The position numbers and the translations under genes were made by a program. This document shows positions 1,114-9,608 of a DNA stretch of 64,000 nucleotides, one piece after another. Source of the stretch: Sphingomonadales bacterium UBA2369 (GTDB lineage Bacteria > Pseudomonadota > Alphaproteobacteria > Sphingomonadales > Sphingomonadaceae); assembly GCA_002344055.1 (NCBI GenBank), contig DDTH01000007.1:30415-94414 (forward strand). Direction: 5' to 3'. Position 1 is the stretch's first letter. Every line of letters starts with the position of its first letter. Below the pieces are notes generated by a model that was given only the letters and a program-made list of their open reading frames with translations, was not told where the DNA came from and did no database searches.

Positions 1114-1188
1114 GGGCGTGTAGCTCAGTGGTAGAGCACTGTGTTGACATCGCAGGGGTCGCAAGTTCAATCCTTGCCACGCCCACCA
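1114..1188 (+). tRNA. tRNA-Val (anticodon GAC), CCA encoded
   Basis: GGGCGTG acceptor stem pairs with CACGCCC; D arm AGCTCAGTGGTAGAGC; anticodon loop TTGACAT; T loop GTTCAATC; ends ACCA. Confidence 0.98.
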
Positions 1189-1280
1189 TTTTCCACCCGA
1201 TCTGAACTATTTGCCGGATCCCTTCGGGGACTTTCCGCAGCGCGTCTTCCATGCGACCCTGCGCCGGAGGGGGATGGCCG

Positions 1281-2573
1281 GTGCGGGTGCTGCTGCTGGG
1301 GGCGACGGGGCTGATCGGGAGCGCGGTGGCGGCGCGGCTTGGCACGGCGGGCCATGAGGTGGTTGGCGTTGCCCGCGGCGTGGACAGCGCGGCGCGACGC
1401 GTGCCGGTGGCGCGGTGGATCGCGCTGGATCTGCGCGCCATCCGCGGCCCGGAAGACTGGCTGCCACACCTCGCGGGAATCGACGCGGTACTGAATTGCG
1501 CGGGCACGCTGCAGGACAATGGCCGCGATTCCACCGCGCGCGTCCATGCGGAGGCGCCGGCGGCACTCTGGGCGGCGTGCGAGCGGGCCGGGGTGAGGCG
1601 CGTCTTGCAGATGTCGGCGATGGGCGTGGACCGGCCGGCGGCGACCGAATTCATGCGGACCAAGCAGGCTGGCGATGCGGCGCTCGCGGCGAGCGGGTTG
1701 GACTGGGTGATCTTGCGGCCGTCGGTGGTGCTGGGGCGGCAGGCCTATGGCGGCAGCGCTTTGATCCGTGGGCTGGCCGCTTTGCCCTGCGCGATTCCGG
1801 TGAAGGAAGCGGGCGCGGTGGATGCCGTGCAGCTGGACGATGTCGCCGAGACAGTGCTGCGGATGATCGAACCCGGCGCGCCGTCTCGGGTCGCATTCGA
1901 CATGGCGGGACCCGAGCGGCTGGAATTCGCCGACGTGGTTGCGCGCTATCGGGCCTGGCTCGGCTGGAAGCCCGCATGGACGTTGCGCGTACCGGGATTC
2001 GCGATGGCACTGGCCTGGCGGCTGGGCGATCTCGCCGCCTGGTTCGGCTGGCGGCCGCCCGTCCGCACGACGGCGCGGATCGAGCTGGCGCGCGGCTCCA
2101 CCGGCGACAATGCGGTCTGGCGGGAACTGACCGGCATGACGCCGACGCCGCTGAAAACGGCGCTCGCGGCCAGCCCGGCGGGGGTGCAGGACCGCTGGTT
2201 CGCGCAGCTCTTCCTGCTGAAACCGGTGGTCGTCATCGCCTTCGCTTTGTTCTGGCTGCTGACCGGACTGATCACGCTCGGCCCTGGCCGGGCGGAGGCG
2301 ATCCGGCTGACCGAGGCGACGGCCGCGGCGCCATGGGCGTGGGAATTGGTGGTTGGCGGGGCGTTGTTCGATGTGCTCATGGGCGTGCTGCTGCTGCACC
2401 GGCGAACGATCCGGCCGGCGCTGATCGTAGCCTTTATCGGCACGGCCGGTTATCTGCTCGCGGGCACGATGCTGATGCCGGAGCTGTGGGCGGATCCGCT
2501 GGGCCGGCTGCTGAAGATCGTGCCGGTCATGGTGCTGAACCTCGTCTGCCTCGCCATGCTGGACGAACGATGA
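1281..2573 (+). CDS. NAD(P)-binding (atypical SDR) oxidoreductase with C-terminal DoxX-like membrane region
   Basis: VLLLGATGLIG Rossmann motif, LRPSVVLG, four hydrophobic C-terminal helices; GTG start after GGAGGGGG. Confidence 0.8.
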   Translation: MRVLLLGATGLIGSAVAARLGTAGHEVVGVARGVDSAARRVPVARWIALDLRAIRGPEDWLPHLAGIDAVLNCAGTLQDNGRDSTARVHAEAPAALWAACERAGVRRVLQMSAMGVDRPAATEFMRTKQAGDAALAASGLDWVILRPSVVLGRQAYGGSALIRGLAALPCAIPVKEAGAVDAVQLDDVAETVLRMIEPGAPSRVAFDMAGPERLEFADVVARYRAWLGWKPAWTLRVPGFAMALAWRLGDLAAWFGWRPPVRTTARIELARGSTGDNAVWRELTGMTPTPLKTALAASPAGVQDRWFAQLFLLKPVVVIAFALFWLLTGLITLGPGRAEAIRLTEATAAAPWAWELVVGGALFDVLMGVLLLHRRTIRPALIVAFIGTAGYLLAGTMLMPELWADPLGRLLKIVPVMVLNLVCLAMLDER

Positions 2574-3040
2574 CCGAATATTTCCTGCTCAAATTCCTCC
2601 ATATCATCGGCGCGACAATGCTGATCGGGACAGGCGCGGGCATCGCCTTCTTCATGCTGATGGCACACCGCACCGGCGAGGCCGCGACGGTGGCGGCGGT
2701 GGCGCGGATCGTGGTGATCGCCGACTGGCTGTTCACCGCGACCGCGGTCGCCGTGCAGCCGATTACGGGCACGCTGCTAGCGTGGAAGACCGGCCTGTCG
2801 TTGAACGAAGGCTGGGTGTCGCTGTCCCTTCTTCTCTATTTGATCATCGGCGCCTTCTGGCTGCCGGTGGTCTGGATGCAGATGCGGATGCGCGATCTGG
2901 CACGCGCGGCAGCGGCGGCGGGCGAACCCTTGCCGCCGGACTATTACTATCTGTTCCGCTGGTGGTTCGCCTGCGGCATCCCGGCCTTCGCCGCGATCCT
3001 GGCGATCGTCTGGCTGATGATCACCAAGCCGGCCATTTAG
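2570..3040 (+). CDS. DUF2269 family integral membrane protein
   Basis: KFLHIIGATMLIGTGAG...ADWLFT...QPITG...WLMITKP pattern; ATGA overlap with the upstream gene. Confidence 0.8.
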   Translation: MTEYFLLKFLHIIGATMLIGTGAGIAFFMLMAHRTGEAATVAAVARIVVIADWLFTATAVAVQPITGTLLAWKTGLSLNEGWVSLSLLLYLIIGAFWLPVVWMQMRMRDLARAAAAAGEPLPPDYYYLFRWWFACGIPAFAAILAIVWLMITKPAI

Positions 3041-3120
3041 GGCGAACTCAACTCGCCTCGCCTTGCGCCGCCTAGCTGCCCTGCTACGATCGAGTTGCGA
3101 CCAAGATCAGGATGGAGGCA

Positions 3121-3495
3121 ATGATGCTCGCGGTCTGGCTTTCACTGGCACCGATGAGCTTCGCGTCTGCGAGCCTGGACGATCAGGATATTTACTGGAT
3201 TCGACGGCCGAACCTCGATTGCCTGATCGCGCACGAGCAATCCTACCTCGCCTCGCCGGATAGTCTCCTCGTGGTCTTCCCGACACTTTGTCCCACGACA
3301 CATCCGACCCGCGTCGAGCGTCAGGGGATCATGGAGAATCAGTATATTCCGGATTGCGCGGCGGGTTTCCAAAGCTGCATGATTCCGCTGAACCGGCAGC
3401 TGCGCCGCTGCTTCTTCGAACGGCTGCGCGCCCAGGCACGCAACAATCCCCGCGCGACGCGGGTTACGGTCAGCACCTACGGCTGCCGCTCATGA
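3121..3495 (+). CDS. Hypothetical small exported protein, 6 Cys
   Basis: GGAGG RBS, signal-peptide-like N-terminus, stop overlaps next ATG (ATGA). Confidence 0.6.
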   Translation: MMLAVWLSLAPMSFASASLDDQDIYWIRRPNLDCLIAHEQSYLASPDSLLVVFPTLCPTTHPTRVERQGIMENQYIPDCAAGFQSCMIPLNRQLRRCFFERLRAQARNNPRATRVTVSTYGCRS

Positions 3496-4082
3496 CGGTG
3501 GCGGCTGGCGCGACTGAGGAGAGTCAGCCGGACGCGCCGCCGCCGCGCCAGCCCGGCCGGTGGCTGATCTATCTCGAAGCCCTTTCCTACCTGTGCACGT
3601 CCCTGGCCCTGATCGGCCTTTTCCTGCAGATCAGCGCAGACAGCAGCGCACAACGCTCCGAAATGTCACTCAAGCATGTGGAGCAATTCAATACTGATCC
3701 GGTGAACACGCATCGCCTGAACCTCACTCGCGCCTGGGCAAATTGGCGGGGGGAACTGGCGACGATCAGTGCCGTCGGCGGCGGCTCGCGGCAGGCCCGT
3801 GCAGATTTTGTGAATGACAGAATCAAGCCGTTCAATCCCGAGAACCAGTCGATCCTTATCTCGATTTATGAACTCACGGCTTTCTATGACCGCACCCTGC
3901 TCTGCGTGGATGTCGGCGCCTGCGACAAACGGATCATCGACGCCTATTTCGAGACCATCATCCGCGAATTCTGGGGCCTGTACGAGCATATTATCGTCGA
4001 GGCCCGCCGACACCATTCGAAGAATCTCGGCACGGTTATCGAAGCCTATATCGCCAGAAAGGACGAGGAGAATAAGCAATGA
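3492..4082 (+). CDS. Hypothetical single-TM protein (DUF4760-like)
   Basis: One N-terminal TM helix then helical domain with FYDRTLLCVDVGACD; ATGA overlaps on both sides. Confidence 0.6.
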   Translation: MTVAAGATEESQPDAPPPRQPGRWLIYLEALSYLCTSLALIGLFLQISADSSAQRSEMSLKHVEQFNTDPVNTHRLNLTRAWANWRGELATISAVGGGSRQARADFVNDRIKPFNPENQSILISIYELTAFYDRTLLCVDVGACDKRIIDAYFETIIREFWGLYEHIIVEARRHHSKNLGTVIEAYIARKDEENKQ

Positions 4083-5296
4083 GGCTGGCCGCGACCGTCA
4101 TGAGTTTGTGCTTGTTCGCGGCTGCCCCTGCATTGGCGCAACAACAGCAACCGCCGGAGATGACTTTCGCCAAGGTCGTTTCTGCCCGCGGGTCTTGGTC
4201 GATCGAGGCCGAGGGCAGGATTTCGGGCAATACAGCGCGACGCTTCGAGGAGTTTGTTGCCGCACAGGACAGCATTGAATCCCTGCAATATATCACGCTC
4301 AACAGCGATGGCGGCAGTCTGGAAGGCGGAATGGCGCTGGGGCGGGCCATCCGCCGGATGCGGATCGGTACCGACGTCGATTTCGAAGCGCGTTGCCTGA
4401 GCGCCTGCGCTTACGCTTTCCTGGGCGGACGTTTCAGGGGCCTCGCGAGGGCATATGGCCAGGAACCGGAGCCGACGCAGGATCGCCTCGGCTTCCACAG
4501 CTTCAGTTACGGGGACAGACCTACCGTCAGCGGGATGCTGATCACCGACGTGCAGGACATGACGAGCCGGCTCAGCAACTATGTGGCGAGCATGGGGGCC
4601 AGCACCGAGATCGTCGTGCGCTCAGCCGATATTCCTGCTGGCCGGTTCCTGTACTTCACCACCCAGGAACTGACCGACCTTGGCATCGTGACCGCGCGTG
4701 GCGGTGACGTCACCGAATTCCAGCTTGTCCCCGATGGCGGCACGTTGCTCGCGGTGGCCCGGCATGAAAATCATCAGTTCATTCTGGCCTGTCGCGCATC
4801 CGCATCCGGCGTGCGCAGACCGGTTGTGGTGTTCACGCAGGCCGTCGCCGCCAGCGCTGCGGAACTCCCAGACGAACTGCCGCGACCGATCCTGCTGTCG
4901 CAGATCAACCGCGTTACAAAGCTGCCCTGGACGCAACGTGATCTGGAGCATGGCCATTTCCATGCCCAAGAGTGGATGATCCCCGCCGACTCCAACCAAG
5001 TGTACGACGATTTTCACTTTGCTGTATTCAATGACGAAGGCGACGAAGTGGAAGCGGAGCAGGTGGAGCTTTCCGCCGCCAACGCCGAATTCCGCGTGGA
5101 ACCTGCTTTCTTCCACGGGCTGGTCGAAATCCCAGTAACTATGGCCCGGCGGATCACGGGCGCGGCCTCCTTCAGCCTCTGGTTTGCCGAGGCGTTCTCA
5201 GGCTCGTCCGTCAGCGAATATCGCTGGGGCCATCGTTTCGACAGTGATCCGCTGGAGCGCGACGTGATCCGGACGGCGCTTGCGTCCTGTATCTAG
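4079..5296 (+). CDS. Exported protein with N-terminal ClpP/crotonase-like (COG3904-like) domain, paralog 1
   Basis: Signal peptide; LNSDGGSLEGGMALGRAIR, CLSACAYAFLGG, LGFHSF. Confidence 0.65.
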   Translation: MRLAATVMSLCLFAAAPALAQQQQPPEMTFAKVVSARGSWSIEAEGRISGNTARRFEEFVAAQDSIESLQYITLNSDGGSLEGGMALGRAIRRMRIGTDVDFEARCLSACAYAFLGGRFRGLARAYGQEPEPTQDRLGFHSFSYGDRPTVSGMLITDVQDMTSRLSNYVASMGASTEIVVRSADIPAGRFLYFTTQELTDLGIVTARGGDVTEFQLVPDGGTLLAVARHENHQFILACRASASGVRRPVVVFTQAVAASAAELPDELPRPILLSQINRVTKLPWTQRDLEHGHFHAQEWMIPADSNQVYDDFHFAVFNDEGDEVEAEQVELSAANAEFRVEPAFFHGLVEIPVTMARRITGAASFSLWFAEAFSGSSVSEYRWGHRFDSDPLERDVIRTALASCI

Positions 5297-5308
5297 GCGA
5301 GAGAAGGC

Positions 5309-6580
5309 ATGAAGCTGGTTCGCACCATCATTGGCTTGCTTGCGATCGCTGCGGCGCCGGCCGCCGCGCAGGAGCAAGGAGAGGAAGCACGGGAAGCTCC
5401 GCCACAGCAGGAAATGACCTTTTCCACCATAGTGGCGACTTACGGAATCTGGTGGGTCAAAGCTGAAGGAAGGATCACTGCCGATACGCCGCGCCGGTTC
5501 GAGCAATTCATGGCTGAGCAGGACGCAATCGAATCCCTGCAAGGCGTGCAGTTCAACAGCGGAGGCGGCAGCCTTCAGGCCGGAATGGACTTGGGGCGCG
5601 CGATCCGCAGGATGCGAATAGCGACCGAAGTCGATCGCGAAGACCTGTGCCTCAGCGCATGCGCCTATGCGTTTCTAGGCGGGCGCATTCGCAACCTCCC
5701 CGTCGGCATTTACGAAGATCTGGGAACGACGCAGGATCGCCTAGGATTCCACAGCTTCAACTATGACGGCGGGCGTATCACGGGACTGAATCCCGGTCAG
5801 CGCGACGTGGTCACCGGCATGATTACCGCGGATGTTCAGGGCATGACCAGCGAACTCAGCGACTATGTGGCGAGCATGGGTGTCAGCACCGCCGTGGTCG
5901 TTCGGTCCGCCGCTGTGCCCACCAGCGATTTCCGCTTCTTCACGCCGCAGGAGCTTGAGGATTTACGCGTTCTGACCCCGCGCGGGACCGACATCTCCGA
6001 ATTCCGGCTGGTACCTGATGGCGACACCTTGCTGGCGCTTGCCAGCCATGAAGACCATCAATTCATCATAGCCTGCCGCGCAACGCCATCGTCAAATGTC
6101 CGAAAGCCGGTATTCGTTTACACACAGGCGGTCGCAGCCACACCGGGAGAACTTCCGGAAGAGCTGCCGGAGCCAATACGTTTGTCCCGGATTCTTCAGT
6201 TGCCGCCTTTGCCCTGGACGCAGGAAGACGTCGCGCACGGCCACTTCCACGCGGGCCGATGGCTCAACCCGGTCGATTTCCCCCAGGTTTTCAGCCATTT
6301 CAATCTCGGCATTACCAATGAGCAGGATGAGAACCTGGACCCGGAGCAACTCGGCCTCAGTGCGGCCACAGCCCAGTTTCGCACCGAACCCGAGTTCTTT
6401 CACGGACTCGTGGAACTGCCGGTGGCAATGGCGCGGCAGATTGCCGGGGCGACGAAATTCGAACTCTGGTTTTCACAGAGGATGGGACCGGAATCCGATG
6501 AATATCGCTGGGGTCATCGGTTCGAGAGCAAATCGCTCGAAAGGGACATCATCCGGGCTGCCCTGGCGCCCTGCATCTAG
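5309..6580 (+). CDS. Exported protein with N-terminal ClpP/crotonase-like (COG3904-like) domain, paralog 2
   Basis: Signal peptide; FNSGGGSLQAGMDLGRAIR, CLSACAYAFLGG, LGFHSF; colinear with 4079..5296 to the C-terminus. Confidence 0.65.
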   Translation: MKLVRTIIGLLAIAAAPAAAQEQGEEAREAPPQQEMTFSTIVATYGIWWVKAEGRITADTPRRFEQFMAEQDAIESLQGVQFNSGGGSLQAGMDLGRAIRRMRIATEVDREDLCLSACAYAFLGGRIRNLPVGIYEDLGTTQDRLGFHSFNYDGGRITGLNPGQRDVVTGMITADVQGMTSELSDYVASMGVSTAVVVRSAAVPTSDFRFFTPQELEDLRVLTPRGTDISEFRLVPDGDTLLALASHEDHQFIIACRATPSSNVRKPVFVYTQAVAATPGELPEELPEPIRLSRILQLPPLPWTQEDVAHGHFHAGRWLNPVDFPQVFSHFNLGITNEQDENLDPEQLGLSAATAQFRTEPEFFHGLVELPVAMARQIAGATKFELWFSQRMGPESDEYRWGHRFESKSLERDIIRAALAPCI

Positions 6581-6586
6581 CGGCAC

Positions 6587-6964
6587 TTAAAGTCGCCCGT
6601 GCTGGTCCTCGGACTGGAACATGCGGTCCACTTCCATCACCAGATCCTTGAGGTGGAAGGGCTTGGAGAGGACCTTGGCTTCCGGCGTGCGGCGGCCGGC
6701 CTTCAGGGCGACGGCGGCGAAGCCGGTGATGAACATGACGCGCACGTCCGGGCAGATTTCGGCGGCGCGCTGGGCGAGTTCGATGCCGTCCATTTCCGGC
6801 ATGACGATGTCGGTCAGCAGCAGGTCGAAGCGCTCGCGCTCCAGCAGCGGCAAAGCCGCGGCGCCATTGTCGACCGACTGGACCTCATAGCCGACGCGCT
6901 CCAGCGCGCGGGCGAGATAGAGCCGCATCGCCTCATCGTCTTCCGCCAGCAGGATCCTGATCAT
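6587..6964 (-). CDS. cpdR: Single-domain response regulator CpdR
   Basis: MIRILLAEDD...DLLLTDIVMPEMDGIELAQRA...VMFITGFAAVAL...VLSKPFHLKDLV; divergent from N-formylglutamate amidohydrolase. Confidence 0.9.
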   Translation of the reverse strand: MIRILLAEDDEAMRLYLARALERVGYEVQSVDNGAAALPLLERERFDLLLTDIVMPEMDGIELAQRAAEICPDVRVMFITGFAAVALKAGRRTPEAKVLSKPFHLKDLVMEVDRMFQSEDQHGRL

Positions 6965-7102
6965 CGCCCCTATCGTCCCTGAACCCTCGTGCGGACCTGT
7001 ATGCGCGAACTCGAATCGCAATGCCAGCATGGGCGGCAGGGTTAATGTCCCGCTTTGATATGGCGTTGCCGCCGTGCCACGCCTGCCATACACCACCGGC
7101 CC

Positions 7103-7963
7103 ATGACCGCCCGTACGGACGCGCCGCCATTTCTCCGCATCGGGCCGGAACGCCCCGCCTCGCCAATCGTGCTGTCCGTGCCGCATGCGGGCCGCGGCTA
7201 CAGCGCCGCTTTGCTGCGCGCGGCGCGGGTGCCGCTGAACGTGCTCGAGCAACTGGAGGACCGGCTGGTCGACCGGCTGGTCTGGCGCGCGGCGGGGACC
7301 GGGGCGACCGCGATCGTGGCGCAGGCGCCGCGCGCTGAGATCGACCTCAATCGTGACGAGAGGGAACTGGACCCGGCGATGATCGCCCCTGCCCCGCCGA
7401 GCGGCAGCCTGCTGACGACGGTGCGGACTCGGGGCGGGCTGGGGCTGGTGCCGGCCCGGCTGGCGGGTTCGGGAGCGCTGTGGCGCGGGCGGATGAGCCG
7501 CGACGAGCTGAAGCGGCGGGTGGAGACGATCCACCGGCCCTATCACGCGGTGCTGGAACAGGCGCTGCAGGCCGCGCGGGCGCGGTTCGGCGTGGCGGTT
7601 CTGCTGGATTGCCATTCCATGCCGCCGCGCGGGCCGGGGCAGCCCGGGATCATCTTCGGCGACCGTTATGGGGTGACGGCAGGTCCGCATATCCTGGCGG
7701 CGGCGATCGCGGCGGCGCGCCAACTGGGCTTCGCGGCGGGACTCAACGATCCCTATGCGGGCGGCCATGTGATCGAACGGCATGGCCGGCCGCAGGAGCA
7801 GGTTCATGCCTTGCAGGTCGAAGTGGACCGCTCGCTCTATCTGGATGCGGCTTTGCGCGAGCCGGGCGACGGGTTCGACGGCATTGCGCGGCTGCTGGCG
7901 GCGATCTGCGAGGCGATTGCGGCCGAGGCCTGCGGCGAATCCGCGGCGATCGCGGCCGAATAG
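7103..7963 (+). CDS. N-formylglutamate amidohydrolase
   Basis: PIVLSVPHAGR, EIDLNRD, YHAVL, LLDCHSMP, NDPYAGG, HALQVEVDRSLY. Confidence 0.9.
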   Translation: MTARTDAPPFLRIGPERPASPIVLSVPHAGRGYSAALLRAARVPLNVLEQLEDRLVDRLVWRAAGTGATAIVAQAPRAEIDLNRDERELDPAMIAPAPPSGSLLTTVRTRGGLGLVPARLAGSGALWRGRMSRDELKRRVETIHRPYHAVLEQALQAARARFGVAVLLDCHSMPPRGPGQPGIIFGDRYGVTAGPHILAAAIAAARQLGFAAGLNDPYAGGHVIERHGRPQEQVHALQVEVDRSLYLDAALREPGDGFDGIARLLAAICEAIAAEACGESAAIAAE

Positions 7964-7972
7964 CCGGCCCCG

Positions 7973-8081
7973 AAAATAAAATGACCGCCGCGTGGGGTCA
8001 CGCGGCGGCCAAGTTCAGGGAGGAGCGCCCTCCGGAGAGGGCGCGGCGCGCGGCCACAAAGGGGGGGTATGGCCCCGCGCT
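7973..8081 (-). ncRNA. alpha-r8/SuhB (MmgR/GsrN-type) small RNA
   Basis: Minus strand reads CTCCTCCCTGAACTTGGCCGCCGCGTGACCCCACGCGGCGGTCATTTTATTTT (C-rich motif plus terminator), preceded by two hairpins; convergent with N-formylglutamate amidohydrolase. Confidence 0.8.
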
Positions 8082-8087
8082 TCCCCT

Positions 8088-8116
8088 CATATGGGGAATG
8101 GAGTCGCGGTTTCAAG
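8088..8116 (-). promoter_or_regulatory. Putative sigma70-type promoter of the alpha-r8 sRNA
   Basis: CTTGAA-N17-CATATG on the minus strand, 7 nt before the first sRNA hairpin. Confidence 0.5.
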
Positions 8117-8155
8117 GGATATTAAGCCGCTGAAACCTAACGACTTTTTAGGGGG

Positions 8156-8956
8156 TCAGTTGACCTGCAGCGCCGGGTTCGCGGCACCGTTCGGCGCGGC
8201 CTGCGGCGGGACCTTGCCCTGCTGCATCTGGCGGCCGAAAATGTCGCGGATCATCGACAGCGAGAAGAGATGCGCGATGACCAACGGCAGGATGCCATTG
8301 TCGCTGATCTTGCGCAGTTGCTCGTCCGTCAGCGCCTTGAACTTCTCTTCATTGACCATGAGGAAGCCGCGATAGACGTAGGGCTGCTCCTCGCTGTCCA
8401 GCTGGATGCTGACCTCGCCGTCCATCAGCAGGCCCAGATCCTGCAATTCCTTGACGAACGCGCCGGTGCGCTGGGCCGACATCTCGAAATCTTCGCAGAA
8501 TTTGACGACATTGTTGGTCGCAATGCTGGGCTTGTCGCCGTCGAACAGCGGCTCGCCATCTTCATATTCGCCGACCACGCCGCTGTCGGGATCGAAGCAG
8601 AGCGACAATTCGGGCGCATCCGGGCTGGTCCGGGCCAGCAGCCACGGATAGCGGCGGACATAGGCCGGGACGTACAATTCGCCGCGCAATTCGCCGCTAT
8701 CGTCGAGGAAGACGTTCACGCCCTCGTTCAACCCCATCAAGGCCAGCGGCACGGGATTGTCGCCCACCGAGAAGACGATCGGGTAGAAACGCTGCGCGTT
8801 GACGAACTCGTCGATCGTCAGCGGAACCGCATGCGCCTGCGCAAAGAAGGGCGCCTTGTCCGGCGTGCGAAGGCGATAATTGGCGTGAACGCCGCTCTGC
8901 AGCGGCATCAGATTCTTGTAAAACAGGGGCAAATTTTCCGCCGGCTGCGTCGCCAT
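8156..8956 (-). CDS. SapC family protein
   Basis: LPLFY..L.PL, HAVPLTIDEF, YPIVF, YVPAYVRRYPW, LAHLFSL. Confidence 0.85.
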   Translation of the reverse strand: MATQPAENLPLFYKNLMPLQSGVHANYRLRTPDKAPFFAQAHAVPLTIDEFVNAQRFYPIVFSVGDNPVPLALMGLNEGVNVFLDDSGELRGELYVPAYVRRYPWLLARTSPDAPELSLCFDPDSGVVGEYEDGEPLFDGDKPSIATNNVVKFCEDFEMSAQRTGAFVKELQDLGLLMDGEVSIQLDSEEQPYVYRGFLMVNEEKFKALTDEQLRKISDNGILPLVIAHLFSLSMIRDIFGRQMQQGKVPPQAAPNGAANPALQVN

Positions 8957-9149
8957 TCGAATGAACTCCATGGATATGGGTGCGTCTGGACCGGTCGCGC
9001 GCGCGACCTGGATTCGGTGTGTCACCCTCTATTGCGCCGTGGGCGAAACCGCAAGCCGGGGTGTCGGCAGGGGATCGGCGTCCGCCTCTGCCCAATTCAT
9101 GCCATATTCAACCGGCGGCGGCTCAAATCCGCAAAATGGAGAATTTCGC

Positions 9150-9608
9150 TTGATCCGCCTCGCCATGGTGGCTGCGCTGTCGCTCGCTGCCCCTCCCGTC
9201 GACGAGGAGGAGACCGCACCGCCGCGGATCGAGCGCATCGCCGTCGAGCTGCTGCAGATTACCGTCCAGCAGATCATCATCCGCGTGCCCCGCCGCGACG
9301 ACCGCGTCCCGGCGATGAGCAATATGGGCTGGCGCGAGACGAACGGCCCGCGCTGCATCCCCGCCCGGCAGATTGCCGGGGCGATGCCGAGTGCAAGCAA
9401 TGTCGATCTGCTGATGCGCGACAATAGCCGCGTCCGGGCGCGGCTGGTCGGGCGCTGCGCGGCGCTCGATTATTATCGCGGCTTGTATGTCGATGCGAAT
9501 CCGGACGGGCAGCTCTGCGCCGGCCGCGATGCGATCCGCTCGCGCATGGGCGGGCAGTGCGAGATCGTGCAATTCCGGGTGCTGAGGCCGCCGGCAAGAG
9601 GGCGCTGA
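9150..9608 (+). CDS. Conserved hypothetical exported protein, 4 Cys
   Basis: TTG start after GGAGA; signal-like N-terminus; PRCIP...C.ALDYY.G.Y....DG.LCAGRD.IRSR.GG.CEI pattern. Confidence 0.6.
   Translation: MIRLAMVAALSLAAPPVDEEETAPPRIERIAVELLQITVQQIIIRVPRRDDRVPAMSNMGWRETNGPRCIPARQIAGAMPSASNVDLLMRDNSRVRARLVGRCAALDYYRGLYVDANPDGQLCAGRDAIRSRMGGQCEIVQFRVLRPPARGR

What the first reader, a model, noticed from the sequence alone, without database searches (positions are those of the whole stretch)
3121..6580. Four-gene exported-protein cassette of unknown function with tandem ClpP-like paralogs
Seen: four co-oriented genes; the first three are coupled by ATGA overlaps and the fourth follows after 12 bp. 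A candidate promoter TTGCGC-N16-TACGAT lies at 3063-3090. The genes are a 6-Cys small exported protein, a single-TM protein, and two colinear ~410-aa paralogs with signal peptides. The DNA looks less GC-rich than its flanks (by eye). Known: GGS..G..LGR.IR, C.SAC and LGFH motifs mark ClpP/crotonase-fold periplasmic proteins, and the Ser and His are at ClpP-like catalytic positions. Inference: a horizontally acquired periplasmic peptidase or sensing module with a duplicated, diverged enzyme and a novel ~200-aa C-terminal domain. I recognise no described system with this layout.
Basis: partly seen in the sequence, partly recalled or inferred. Interest (0 to 1): 0.62.

Follow-up and report, generated by a model that had tools for sequence, protein, structure and literature searches.

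The report
Mobile periplasmic ClpP-like three-protein module
This is a horizontally acquired gene cassette for three exported proteins (a small disulfide-bonded protein, a membrane-anchored helical protein and a ClpP-shaped serine hydrolase, the last duplicated here); the same trio recurs in scattered alphaproteobacteria, and nobody has studied what it does.

Summary
Four co-oriented, tightly coupled genes lie at 3121-6580. The two large ones are 57-60% identical paralogs. The cassette has 60.7% GC against 66.7% for the genome. It is missing from the same site in the nearest relative and from all 36 same-genus genomes searched.

The large proteins have an N-terminal ClpP/SppA/NfeD-fold domain (AlphaFold pLDDT 90; Foldseek). 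Ser116 and His148 align with ClpP's catalytic Ser and His. This domain belongs to the large uncharacterised COG3904 family. The C-terminal ~190 residues match no Pfam or PDB sequence. The second gene is a DUF4760-type single-pass membrane protein.

New here: the core is a conserved three-gene module of small 4-Cys protein, DUF4760-like protein and COG3904 protein. Tandem large genes recur in a Hoeflea MAG and two TARA marine contigs, where one copy has lost Ser and His.

Most likely it is a self-contained periplasmic, membrane-associated Ser-His peptidase system with a partner or substrate, possibly hetero-oligomeric here. The function is untested. I rate it a new variant of a known kind, of moderate interest.

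The parts
3031..6577 (+). Inserted segment relative to the nearest relative (the whole cassette plus its 90-bp leader)
   Evidence: blastn against G016 contig C175 aligns window 1277-3030 and 6578-9257 at about 82%, with 595 bp between them instead of 3547 bp. GC is 60.7%, the 1.5th percentile of the genome.
3063..3090 (+). Candidate promoter hexamers TTGCGC-N16-TACGAT (weak, unsupported)
   Evidence: Present in the sequence, but only a 7/12 match to the consensus. The scan finds 0 promoter-like sites in 2900-6750.
3121..3495 (+). Gene A: small exported protein (123-124 aa, 6 Cys of which 4 are invariant); the likely start is ATG 3124 after GGAGG 3114-3118
   Evidence: Translation. Homologs lie directly upstream of the DUF4760-like gene in every related cassette, with invariant C34, C57, C97 and C122. 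No Pfam, NCBIfam or PADLOC family.
3492..4082 (+). Gene B: single-pass membrane protein with an all-helical DUF4760-type domain (196 aa) and a conserved C138/C144 pair
   Evidence: Pfam PF15956 DUF4760, E 1.6e-6, 28.8 bits against a cut-off of 25. The AF2 model has pLDDT 82, with a long helix at 23-66 followed by a helical bundle, and no PDB fold match. Conserved in all cassettes.
4079..5296 (+). Gene C1: exported COG3904-type ClpP-fold protein plus C-terminal beta-rich domain (405 aa)
   Evidence: 57% identical to C2 over the full length. Keeps CLSAC and LGFH. dN/dS against C2 is 0.16.
5309..6580 (+). Gene C2: exported COG3904-type ClpP-fold protein plus C-terminal beta-rich domain (423 aa); Ser116/His148 putative dyad, C114/C118 flank the Ser, C256/C422 invariant
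   Evidence: AF2 pLDDT 90.1, pTM 0.84. Foldseek hits ClpP, SppA and 1510-N at E about 1e-4. hhalign to the genome's own ClpP aligns S116 and H148 with the catalytic Ser and His. Conservation is shown.
6587..6970 (-). Flanking core gene (not part of the module): CpdR-like single-domain response regulator, convergent, with its stop 6 bp from the C2 stop
   Evidence: Present at 78-100% identity in 21 of the 22 same-genus genomes in that search (G005 gave only a weak hit, E 3.9e-19), and syntenic with downstream genes in relatives that lack the cassette.

Best explanation
The region is a horizontally acquired, self-contained envelope module. Its core is three genes that travel together: (A) a small Sec-exported protein held by two conserved disulfides; (B) a bitopic inner-membrane protein whose DUF4760 helical bundle, with its own conserved Cys pair, most likely faces the periplasm; and (C) an exported hydrolase. 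C has an N-terminal ClpP/SppA/NfeD-fold domain with a ClpP-type nucleophile Ser (Ser116, in C-x-S-A-C) and general base His (His148, in LGFH), plus the NSxGG oxyanion loop. A family-specific beta-rich C-terminal domain follows.

Most likely C is a periplasmic Ser-His peptidase that B recruits to, or regulates at, the membrane. It would act on, or be controlled by, A as substrate, pro-protein or inhibitor. This would resemble the way ClpP-fold NfeD proteases are paired in operons with their membrane partner stomatin.

In this genome C is duplicated into two old, diverged copies, both with intact active sites. They probably assemble as a hetero-oligomer.

Shown: gene structure, fold, residue conservation, co-occurrence of the three genes, horizontal acquisition, and purifying selection on both copies.

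Inferred: periplasmic location, catalysis, oligomerisation, physical interaction of A, B and C, and the biological role.
For: Fold and active site:
- The AF2 model has pLDDT 90. Its top 50 PDB matches are ClpP, SppA and the 1510-N stomatin-specific protease.
- Viral-library matches are phage ClpP-like and COG3904-like proteins.
- hhalign to the genome's own ClpP (E 1.1e-5) places S116 on the catalytic Ser and H148 on the catalytic His.
- S84, G86, G87, C114, S116, C118, G124, G125, R128, G146 and H148 are at least 90% conserved over 60 family members.

Module conservation:
- The order A-B-C is found in L014, L015, L016, L046, L047, L048/49, L061 (Sphingopyxis MAG), L062-64, L031, L032 (Cereibacter MAG) and L059.
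- The flanking genes differ in each case. In L062/63 the module sits beside an IS transposase between thiG and thiS.
- The same parts occur in a convergent arrangement with two tandem C genes in a Hoeflea MAG and two TARA contigs.

Acquisition: absent at the same site in G016, absent from 36 same-genus genomes, and atypical in GC and GC3.

Both copies functional: dN/dS is 0.16 with saturated dS, and both keep CLSAC and LGFH.

The hetero-oligomer idea: tandem COG3904 pairs recur. In Hoeflea/TARA and at this genome's own C6 locus, one partner has lost Ser and His.
Against: - No biochemical or genetic data exist for any COG3904 or DUF4760 protein in the papers searched.
- ClpP's Asp is not conserved: position 207 is D/R/N/Q/E. 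A Ser-His dyad is therefore assumed.
- TM-scores to ClpP-fold structures are moderate (0.44-0.60 normalised to the target).
- I could not read model coordinates, so Ser-His proximity and disulfide geometry are unchecked.
- Signal peptides and the topology of B were judged by eye, and gene A's signal here lacks a positive n-region.
- No complex prediction was possible, so contacts between A, B and C rest on gene linkage alone.
Confidence: 0.55

Rival explanations
1. It is a competition or bacteriocin-like module. The small Cys-rich exported protein A is a secreted effector or pro-toxin, C is its maturation or processing protease, and the membrane protein B gives self-protection.
For: The distribution is sporadic and horizontally mobile, in varied contexts and once with an IS. 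A is small, exported and disulfide-rich, and is always encoded first. The module is self-contained, with no conserved neighbours.
Against: No dedicated exporter, lysis or immunity family was recognised, and PADLOC, Pfam and NCBIfam give nothing for A. A is rather well conserved (24-38% identity with 4 invariant Cys) instead of showing the rapid diversification typical of toxins. There is no evidence that A leaves the periplasm.
Confidence: 0.12
2. It is an envelope-level anti-phage or stress-defence module. A periplasmic protease system is triggered at the membrane by B and degrades incoming phage or damaged envelope proteins.
For: COG3904-like exported proteins are common in phages (phrog_30575 at E 1.7e-4). 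DUF4760 is scattered in bacteria. One COG3904 gene lies next to AbiEii in Azospirillum. The module is rare and patchy, in 3 of 401 class-level genomes.
Against: No PADLOC model matches any of the four proteins. The cassettes are not in recognisable defence islands: their neighbours are housekeeping genes, a LysR regulator, or thiS/thiG.
Confidence: 0.1
3. C1 and C2 are non-catalytic ClpP-fold binding or scaffold proteins (pseudo-peptidases), and the module has a structural or chaperone role in the envelope.
For: ClpP's Asp is missing. Catalytically dead COG3904 paralogs clearly exist. The nucleophile is flanked by two conserved Cys that could lock the site.
Against: Ser116, His148 and the GG oxyanion loop are at least 90% conserved across 60 diverse members and are intact in every cassette's C gene. 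Where a dead copy exists it is always paired with an intact one. That pattern argues that the residues matter.
Confidence: 0.13

Closest known systems
COG3904 family ('predicted periplasmic protein', function unknown; the name NCBI and UniRef give to hits such as the Azospirillum canadense protein P0009)
   Same: The N-terminal domain is homologous (E 1e-16 and below). It shares the exported ClpP-fold core with the NSxGG, C-x-S-A-C, FLGG and LGxH motifs.
   Different: Full-length relatives with this C-terminal domain are rare: about 10 clusters at 50% identity among 1.8 billion representatives. None is in the 185,579-species genome set apart from the window's own genome. This subfamily is always linked to genes A and B, whereas a typical COG3904 gene such as the Azospirillum one is not.
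ClpP (MEROPS S14), the proteolytic core of ATP-dependent Clp proteases
   Same: Same fold, with the nucleophile Ser and general-base His at equivalent positions.
   Different: About 12-14% identity. It is exported rather than cytoplasmic and has no partner ATPase. The Asp of the triad is not conserved. There is an extra 190-aa C-terminal domain, and two Cys bracket the Ser. Pfam CLP_protease does not match.
NfeD/STOPP 1510-N protease with stomatin (PH1510/PH1511), and SppA (MEROPS S49)
   Same: ClpP-fold serine proteases that act at the membrane, without ATP, outside the cytoplasmic Clp system. 1510-N is encoded in an operon with its membrane-protein partner and substrate. These are among the best structural matches, with the highest identities at 18-19%.
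   Different: Those enzymes use a Ser-Lys dyad and are membrane-anchored themselves. Here the dyad is Ser-His, the enzyme appears soluble, and the partner is a DUF4760 protein, not a stomatin. A third, small Cys-rich component is present.
Pfam DUF4760 (PF15956)
   Same: Gene B matches above Pfam's gathering score. Relatives in other cassettes match below the cut-off over the same region.
   Different: DUF4760 has no known function. Its linkage to COG3904 and to a 4-Cys protein is not described in the papers searched. DUF4760 also occurs alone (G093).

Membership tests
ClpP/crotonase-fold serine peptidases (MEROPS clan SK: S14, S49) | ClpP-type alpha/beta fold of the catalytic domain | tested here: met
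   The AF2 model (pLDDT 90.1) has Foldseek top-50 PDB hits that are all ClpP, SppA or 1510-N, with E 8e-5 to 4e-4, probability 1.00 and TM(target) 0.44-0.60.
ClpP/crotonase-fold serine peptidases (MEROPS clan SK: S14, S49) | Nucleophile Ser at the elbow after the central strand, and the oxyanion GG loop | tested here: met
   hhalign aligns S116 with the Ser of AASMG in the genome's own ClpP, and NSGGG with NSPGG. S116, G86 and G87 are at least 90% conserved in 60 sequences.
ClpP (S14) proper | Ser-His-Asp triad | tested here: not met
   His148 aligns with ClpP's His. ClpP's Asp aligns to a variable position, and D207 nearby is D/R/N/Q/E across the subfamily and R in paralog C1.
ClpP (S14) proper | Match to the Pfam CLP_protease / NCBIfam ClpP models; cytoplasmic, with a ClpX/ClpA partner | tested here: not met
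   There is no Pfam hit. The only NCBIfam hit is weak: 'ClpP-related head maturation protease', E 0.02-0.1, 12-15 bits against a cut-off of 120. The N-terminal segments look like signal peptides.
SppA / NfeD (S49-type) | Ser-Lys catalytic dyad | tested here: inconclusive
   The conserved base candidate is His148 at the ClpP position. I did not identify an invariant Lys, but without coordinates I could not examine the S49 Lys position structurally.
COG3904 family | Sequence homology of the exported ClpP-like core to proteins named COG3904 | tested here: met
   phmmer hits to proteins that NCBI and UniRef name 'COG3904 family protein' have E 1e-16 to 5e-9 over residues ~40-230. 1949 representatives match at E<=1e-3.
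DUF4760 (PF15956), for gene B | Score above Pfam's gathering threshold | tested here: met
   28.8 bits against a cut-off of 25, E 1.6e-6, covering profile positions 6-126 of 141. Orthologs in other cassettes score 14-24 bits over the same region.
Known anti-phage defence systems (PADLOC-DB v2) | Any component matches a PADLOC model | tested here: not met
   All four proteins give 0 families at E<=1.

The most novel reading that the evidence does not exclude
The A-B-C trio is an undescribed kind of ATP-independent periplasmic proteolytic machine. In this reading, a COG3904 Ser-His peptidase has its nucleophile bracketed by a conserved Cys-x-Ser-Ala-Cys pair, which could act as a redox or compartment gate. 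Its C-terminal domain carries a conserved HxHFH histidine cluster, which could bind a metal. The peptidase is docked on a DUF4760 membrane anchor and processes a dedicated small disulfide-bonded protein. Paralog pairs (active plus active here, active plus dead elsewhere) form obligate hetero-oligomers, analogous to ClpP1P2 or ClpP/ClpR.
Probability: 0.2. Interest if true: 0.7.

Novelty: new variant of a known kind. Interest (0 to 1): 0.45.

Why it matters
COG3904 is a very large family of exported ClpP-fold proteins in bacteria and phages, with about 1,900 clusters at 50% identity detected from this query alone. No member has a known substrate or role.

This cassette supplies what the family has lacked. 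It gives a fixed genetic context of two dedicated partner proteins that co-travel with the enzyme across distant alphaproteobacteria. These partners are concrete candidates for substrate, regulator and membrane dock.

The recurring paralog pairs, some with one dead copy, point to hetero-oligomeric assemblies.

If the module proves to be an ATP-independent periplasmic protease with a dedicated substrate, it would assign a first function to both COG3904 and DUF4760. If not, it remains an ordinary hypothetical-protein islet.

Tried and rejected
- Pfam, NCBIfam, PHROGs and PADLOC scans of all four proteins gave only DUF4760 for gene B and weak ClpP-related hints for the large proteins.
- A PDB sequence search found nothing for P0004 or for a profile of the C-terminal domain.
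- A Pfam scan of 13 C-terminal domains found nothing credible.
- A Foldseek search of the gene B model found no significant PDB match; the best E was 2.2.
- Profile comparison of the C-terminal domain with the Azospirillum and Cereibacter proteins was not significant. I therefore do not claim the C-terminal domain is shared across the wider COG3904 family, although MAFFT aligns a Cys pair.
- Scans of genome contigs and metagenome contigs with the full-length alignment returned only N-domain relatives. The first attempt, with a 14-sequence alignment, failed for lack of a conserved stretch.
- I looked for mobile-element signatures at the insertion borders, such as direct repeats, an integrase or tRNA-end duplication. 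I found none beyond the paralog repeats. tRNA-Val lies 1.9 kb upstream, with two other genes between it and the cassette.
- I rejected the idea that the adjacent CpdR regulator belongs to the module. It is a core gene and is syntenic in relatives without the cassette.
- The promoter claim is not supported by the consensus scan.
- The look-up for P0018 found no record.
Full report
**1. What is in the sequence**

Four + strand ORFs fill 3121-6580.

| Gene | Coordinates | Length |
|---|---|---|
| A | 3121/3124-3495 | 123-124 aa |
| B | 3492-4082 | 196 aa |
| C1 | 4079-5296 | 405 aa |
| C2 | 5309-6580 | 423 aa |

- A/B and B/C1 overlap by ATGA, and C2 follows C1 after 12 bp.
- A GGAGG at 3114-3118 favours ATG 3124 as the start of A.
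- C1 and C2 are colinear and 57% identical by BLASTP, E 2e-169.
- The proposed promoter hexamers exist at 3063-3090. They match the consensus at only 7 of 12 positions, and the consensus scan finds no promoter-like site in 2900-6750. I give them no weight.
- The stop of C2 lies 6 bp from the stop of a convergent response-regulator gene. No terminator-like site lies between them.

**2. Foreign origin**

- The cassette has 60.7% GC against a genome mean of 66.7% (SD 2.0). That is the 1.5th percentile of 6,513 windows of equal size.
- GC3 is 0.70-0.74, against 0.83-0.88 for seven neighbouring genes.
- The closest relative found, G016, has an identical CpdR-like protein. It aligns with the window at about 82% over 1277-3030 and 6578-9257, but has 595 bp where the window has 3,547 bp.
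- Two other genus members place tRNA-Val directly beside the regulator gene, so this is a variable spot.
- None of the 36 same-genus genomes has a full-length relative of C2. They have only N-terminal-domain hits from other COG3904 genes.
- I found no integrase, IS or flanking repeats at the borders.

**3. The large proteins**

- No Pfam family matches. NCBIfam and PHROGs give only weak ClpP-related hints.
- phmmer against 5.8 billion proteins finds three full-length relatives (34-38% identity). After those come N-terminal-half matches to proteins that NCBI and UniRef call 'COG3904 family protein'.
- An exhaustive search of 1.84 billion representatives gives 1,949 hits at E<=1e-3. Only about ten span both domains.
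- AlphaFold2 with a 60-sequence alignment gives pLDDT 90.1 and pTM 0.84. It shows an alpha/beta domain at ~36-225 and a beta-rich domain at ~233-420.
- The 50 best Foldseek PDB matches are all ClpP, B. subtilis SppA or the archaeal stomatin-specific protease 1510-N, with E about 1e-4 and TM normalised to the target of 0.44-0.60.
- The viral library returns phage ClpP-like and COG3904-like proteins. The best, at E 4e-17, is aligned over 404 columns.
- Profile alignment to the genome's own ClpP (E 1.1e-5) puts Ser116 (C-L-S-A-C) on the catalytic Ser, His148 (L-G-F-H) on the catalytic His, and NSGGG on NSPGG.
- ClpP's Asp has no conserved counterpart.
- Across 60 family members the following are at least 90% conserved: S84, G86, G87, G96, R100, C114, S116, A117, C118, G124, G125, R128, G146, H148, Q177, Y186 and M190.
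A Ser-His dyad is the most economical reading.
- The C-terminal domain has no Pfam or PDB sequence relative. Within the subfamily it has invariant C256 and C422, which probably form a disulfide, and a conserved W303...D307..H310-x-H312-F-H314-A motif.

**4. The two small proteins**

- B matches Pfam DUF4760 above threshold.
- Its model (pLDDT 82) is a long helix at 23-66 that contains the hydrophobic span, followed by a helical bundle. It has no PDB fold match.
- It has an invariant C138/C144 pair. With the basic N-terminal segments seen in distant orthologs, this suggests an N-in, C-out topology. That is inference.
- A has no family. It has an N-terminal hydrophobic segment and four invariant Cys. 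More distant orthologs have textbook signal peptides.

**5. The unit is a conserved three-gene module**

The order A, B, C, with tight coupling, is found in the following places:

- Three Logan contigs (L014-L016) and an ENA contig (L046).
- L047 and a Sphingopyxis MAG (L061).
- JGI contigs L048/49 and L062-64.
- In more divergent form, an alphaproteobacterial MAG (L031), a Cereibacter sphaeroides MAG (L032) and genome G380 (L059).

- The neighbours differ in every lineage. In L062/63 the module sits next to a DDE transposase between thiG and thiS.
- In a class-wide sample, a B-like gene occurs in 3 of 401 genomes.
- All these cassettes have one C gene.
- An HMM scan of every locus fetched showed a second arrangement in a Hoeflea MAG (L029) and two TARA contigs (L033, L037). 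Two tandem C genes are followed by a convergent B-A pair.
- In that arrangement the first C has lost the nucleophile and the base (C-I-A-A-C, L-G-F-G-P-Y), while the second is intact.
- This genome's other COG3904 locus, on contig C6, and its genus-wide counterparts are also tandem pairs. The one read in full, C6, has one intact copy (C-F-S-A-C) and one dead copy (C-A-G-A-C).

**6. The duplication**

- C1 and C2 are sister sequences in a maximum-likelihood tree, with support 87/99.
- Their dS is saturated at about 1.9, and dN/dS is 0.16 in both domains.
- Both copies have therefore been kept by selection for a long time. Since the nearest relative lacks the cassette, the duplication most likely predates its arrival here. 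That is inference.

**7. How it most likely works**

All three protein types carry export or topology signals and conserved Cys pairs, so the module most likely acts in the periplasm. C would be a Ser-His peptidase of the ClpP fold that works without an ATPase, as SppA and NfeD do.

Its invariable linkage to a membrane-anchored helical protein and a small disulfide-bonded protein suggests a dock or regulator and a dedicated substrate, pro-protein or inhibitor. The recurrent paralog pairs suggest hetero-oligomers.

None of this has been tested.

Rival readings cannot be excluded:
- a bacteriocin-like effector with its processing protease and an immunity protein;
- an envelope defence system;
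- a non-catalytic scaffold.

I rank each below the generic 'periplasmic protease with dedicated partners' reading. There is no exporter, no defence-model match and no defence-island context, and the catalytic residues are conserved.

**8. Comparison with what is known, and novelty**

- The N-terminal domain is a member of the named but uncharacterised COG3904 family.
- It is not a ClpP proper: there is no Asp, no Pfam match, and it is exported.
- It does not show the Ser-Lys signature of S49 enzymes.
- Gene B is a DUF4760 member.
- Literature searches for COG3904, DUF4760 and periplasmic ClpP-like proteins found no functional study. One of the two COG3904 mentions uses the number for an unrelated CopG protein.
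- Earlier notes of this scan describe exported COG3904 proteins in jumbo phages and suggest a Ser-His dyad with a Cys clamp. My conservation data agree with that.
- The new points are the conserved A-B-C module, its mobility, and the paralog-pair pattern.
- I classify it as a new variant of a known kind, with moderate interest.

**9. Limits**

- There was no signal-peptide predictor, no multimer prediction and no access to model coordinates.

Noticed in passing
G000 contig C6:486975-489050 (locus L003: 1063-2211 and 2239-2892): A second COG3904 locus in the same genome. It is a tandem pair of short exported ClpP-like proteins. One has an intact C-F-S-A-C motif and the other has Gly in place of the nucleophile Ser (C-A-G-A-C) and no His. 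The same tandem pair occurs in same-genus genomes (L006, L008).
   Followed up: partly
L029:7782-11255 (Hoeflea sp. MAG), also L033 and L037 (TARA): An alternative layout of the same components: two tandem COG3904 genes (the first catalytically dead, the second intact), followed by a convergent DUF4760-like gene and small 4-Cys gene.
   Followed up: partly
L050:2107-2268 (G016, the nearest relative, at the site where the window has the cassette): A small ORF, MNGKEDAARADEGRDAAARRPWIAPELRTMRAGSAEAGANPAFPEGMFATGTS, lies in the 595-bp spacer. Its W-x-x-P-x-L...AE.G pattern resembles leader or core regions of ribosomally made modified peptides. This is only an impression.
   Followed up: no
window 1114-3040: tRNA-Val (1114-1188) is followed by an epimerase-like/membrane fusion gene (1251-2573) and a small membrane-protein gene (about 2570-3040). 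These two genes are present in G016, but they did not align in the 16-kb stretches read around the regulator gene in G007 and G015, where tRNA-Val (inverted) directly abuts that gene. The tRNA-Val to cpdR interval is a variable hot spot in this genus.
   Followed up: partly
window 6578-6589: The stop codon of C2 (TAG 6578-6580) and the stop of the convergent response-regulator gene (6587-6589) are only 6 bp apart, with no terminator-like hairpin between them. Transcription from the two sides may collide.
   Followed up: no
window 6236-6250 (P0004 residues 310-314) and equivalents in C1: The C-terminal domain carries a conserved H-x-H-F-H-A motif: H310 in 11/14, H312 in 12/14 and H314 in 13/14 subfamily members. 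H365 is conserved in 10/14. This may be a metal-binding site.
   Followed up: partly
L062:2274-6814 and L063: In a JGI metagenome lineage the three-gene module, together with a DDE_Tnp_1 transposase and a 49-aa ORF, sits between thiG and thiS. This looks like an insertion into a thiamine-biosynthesis gene cluster.
   Followed up: no
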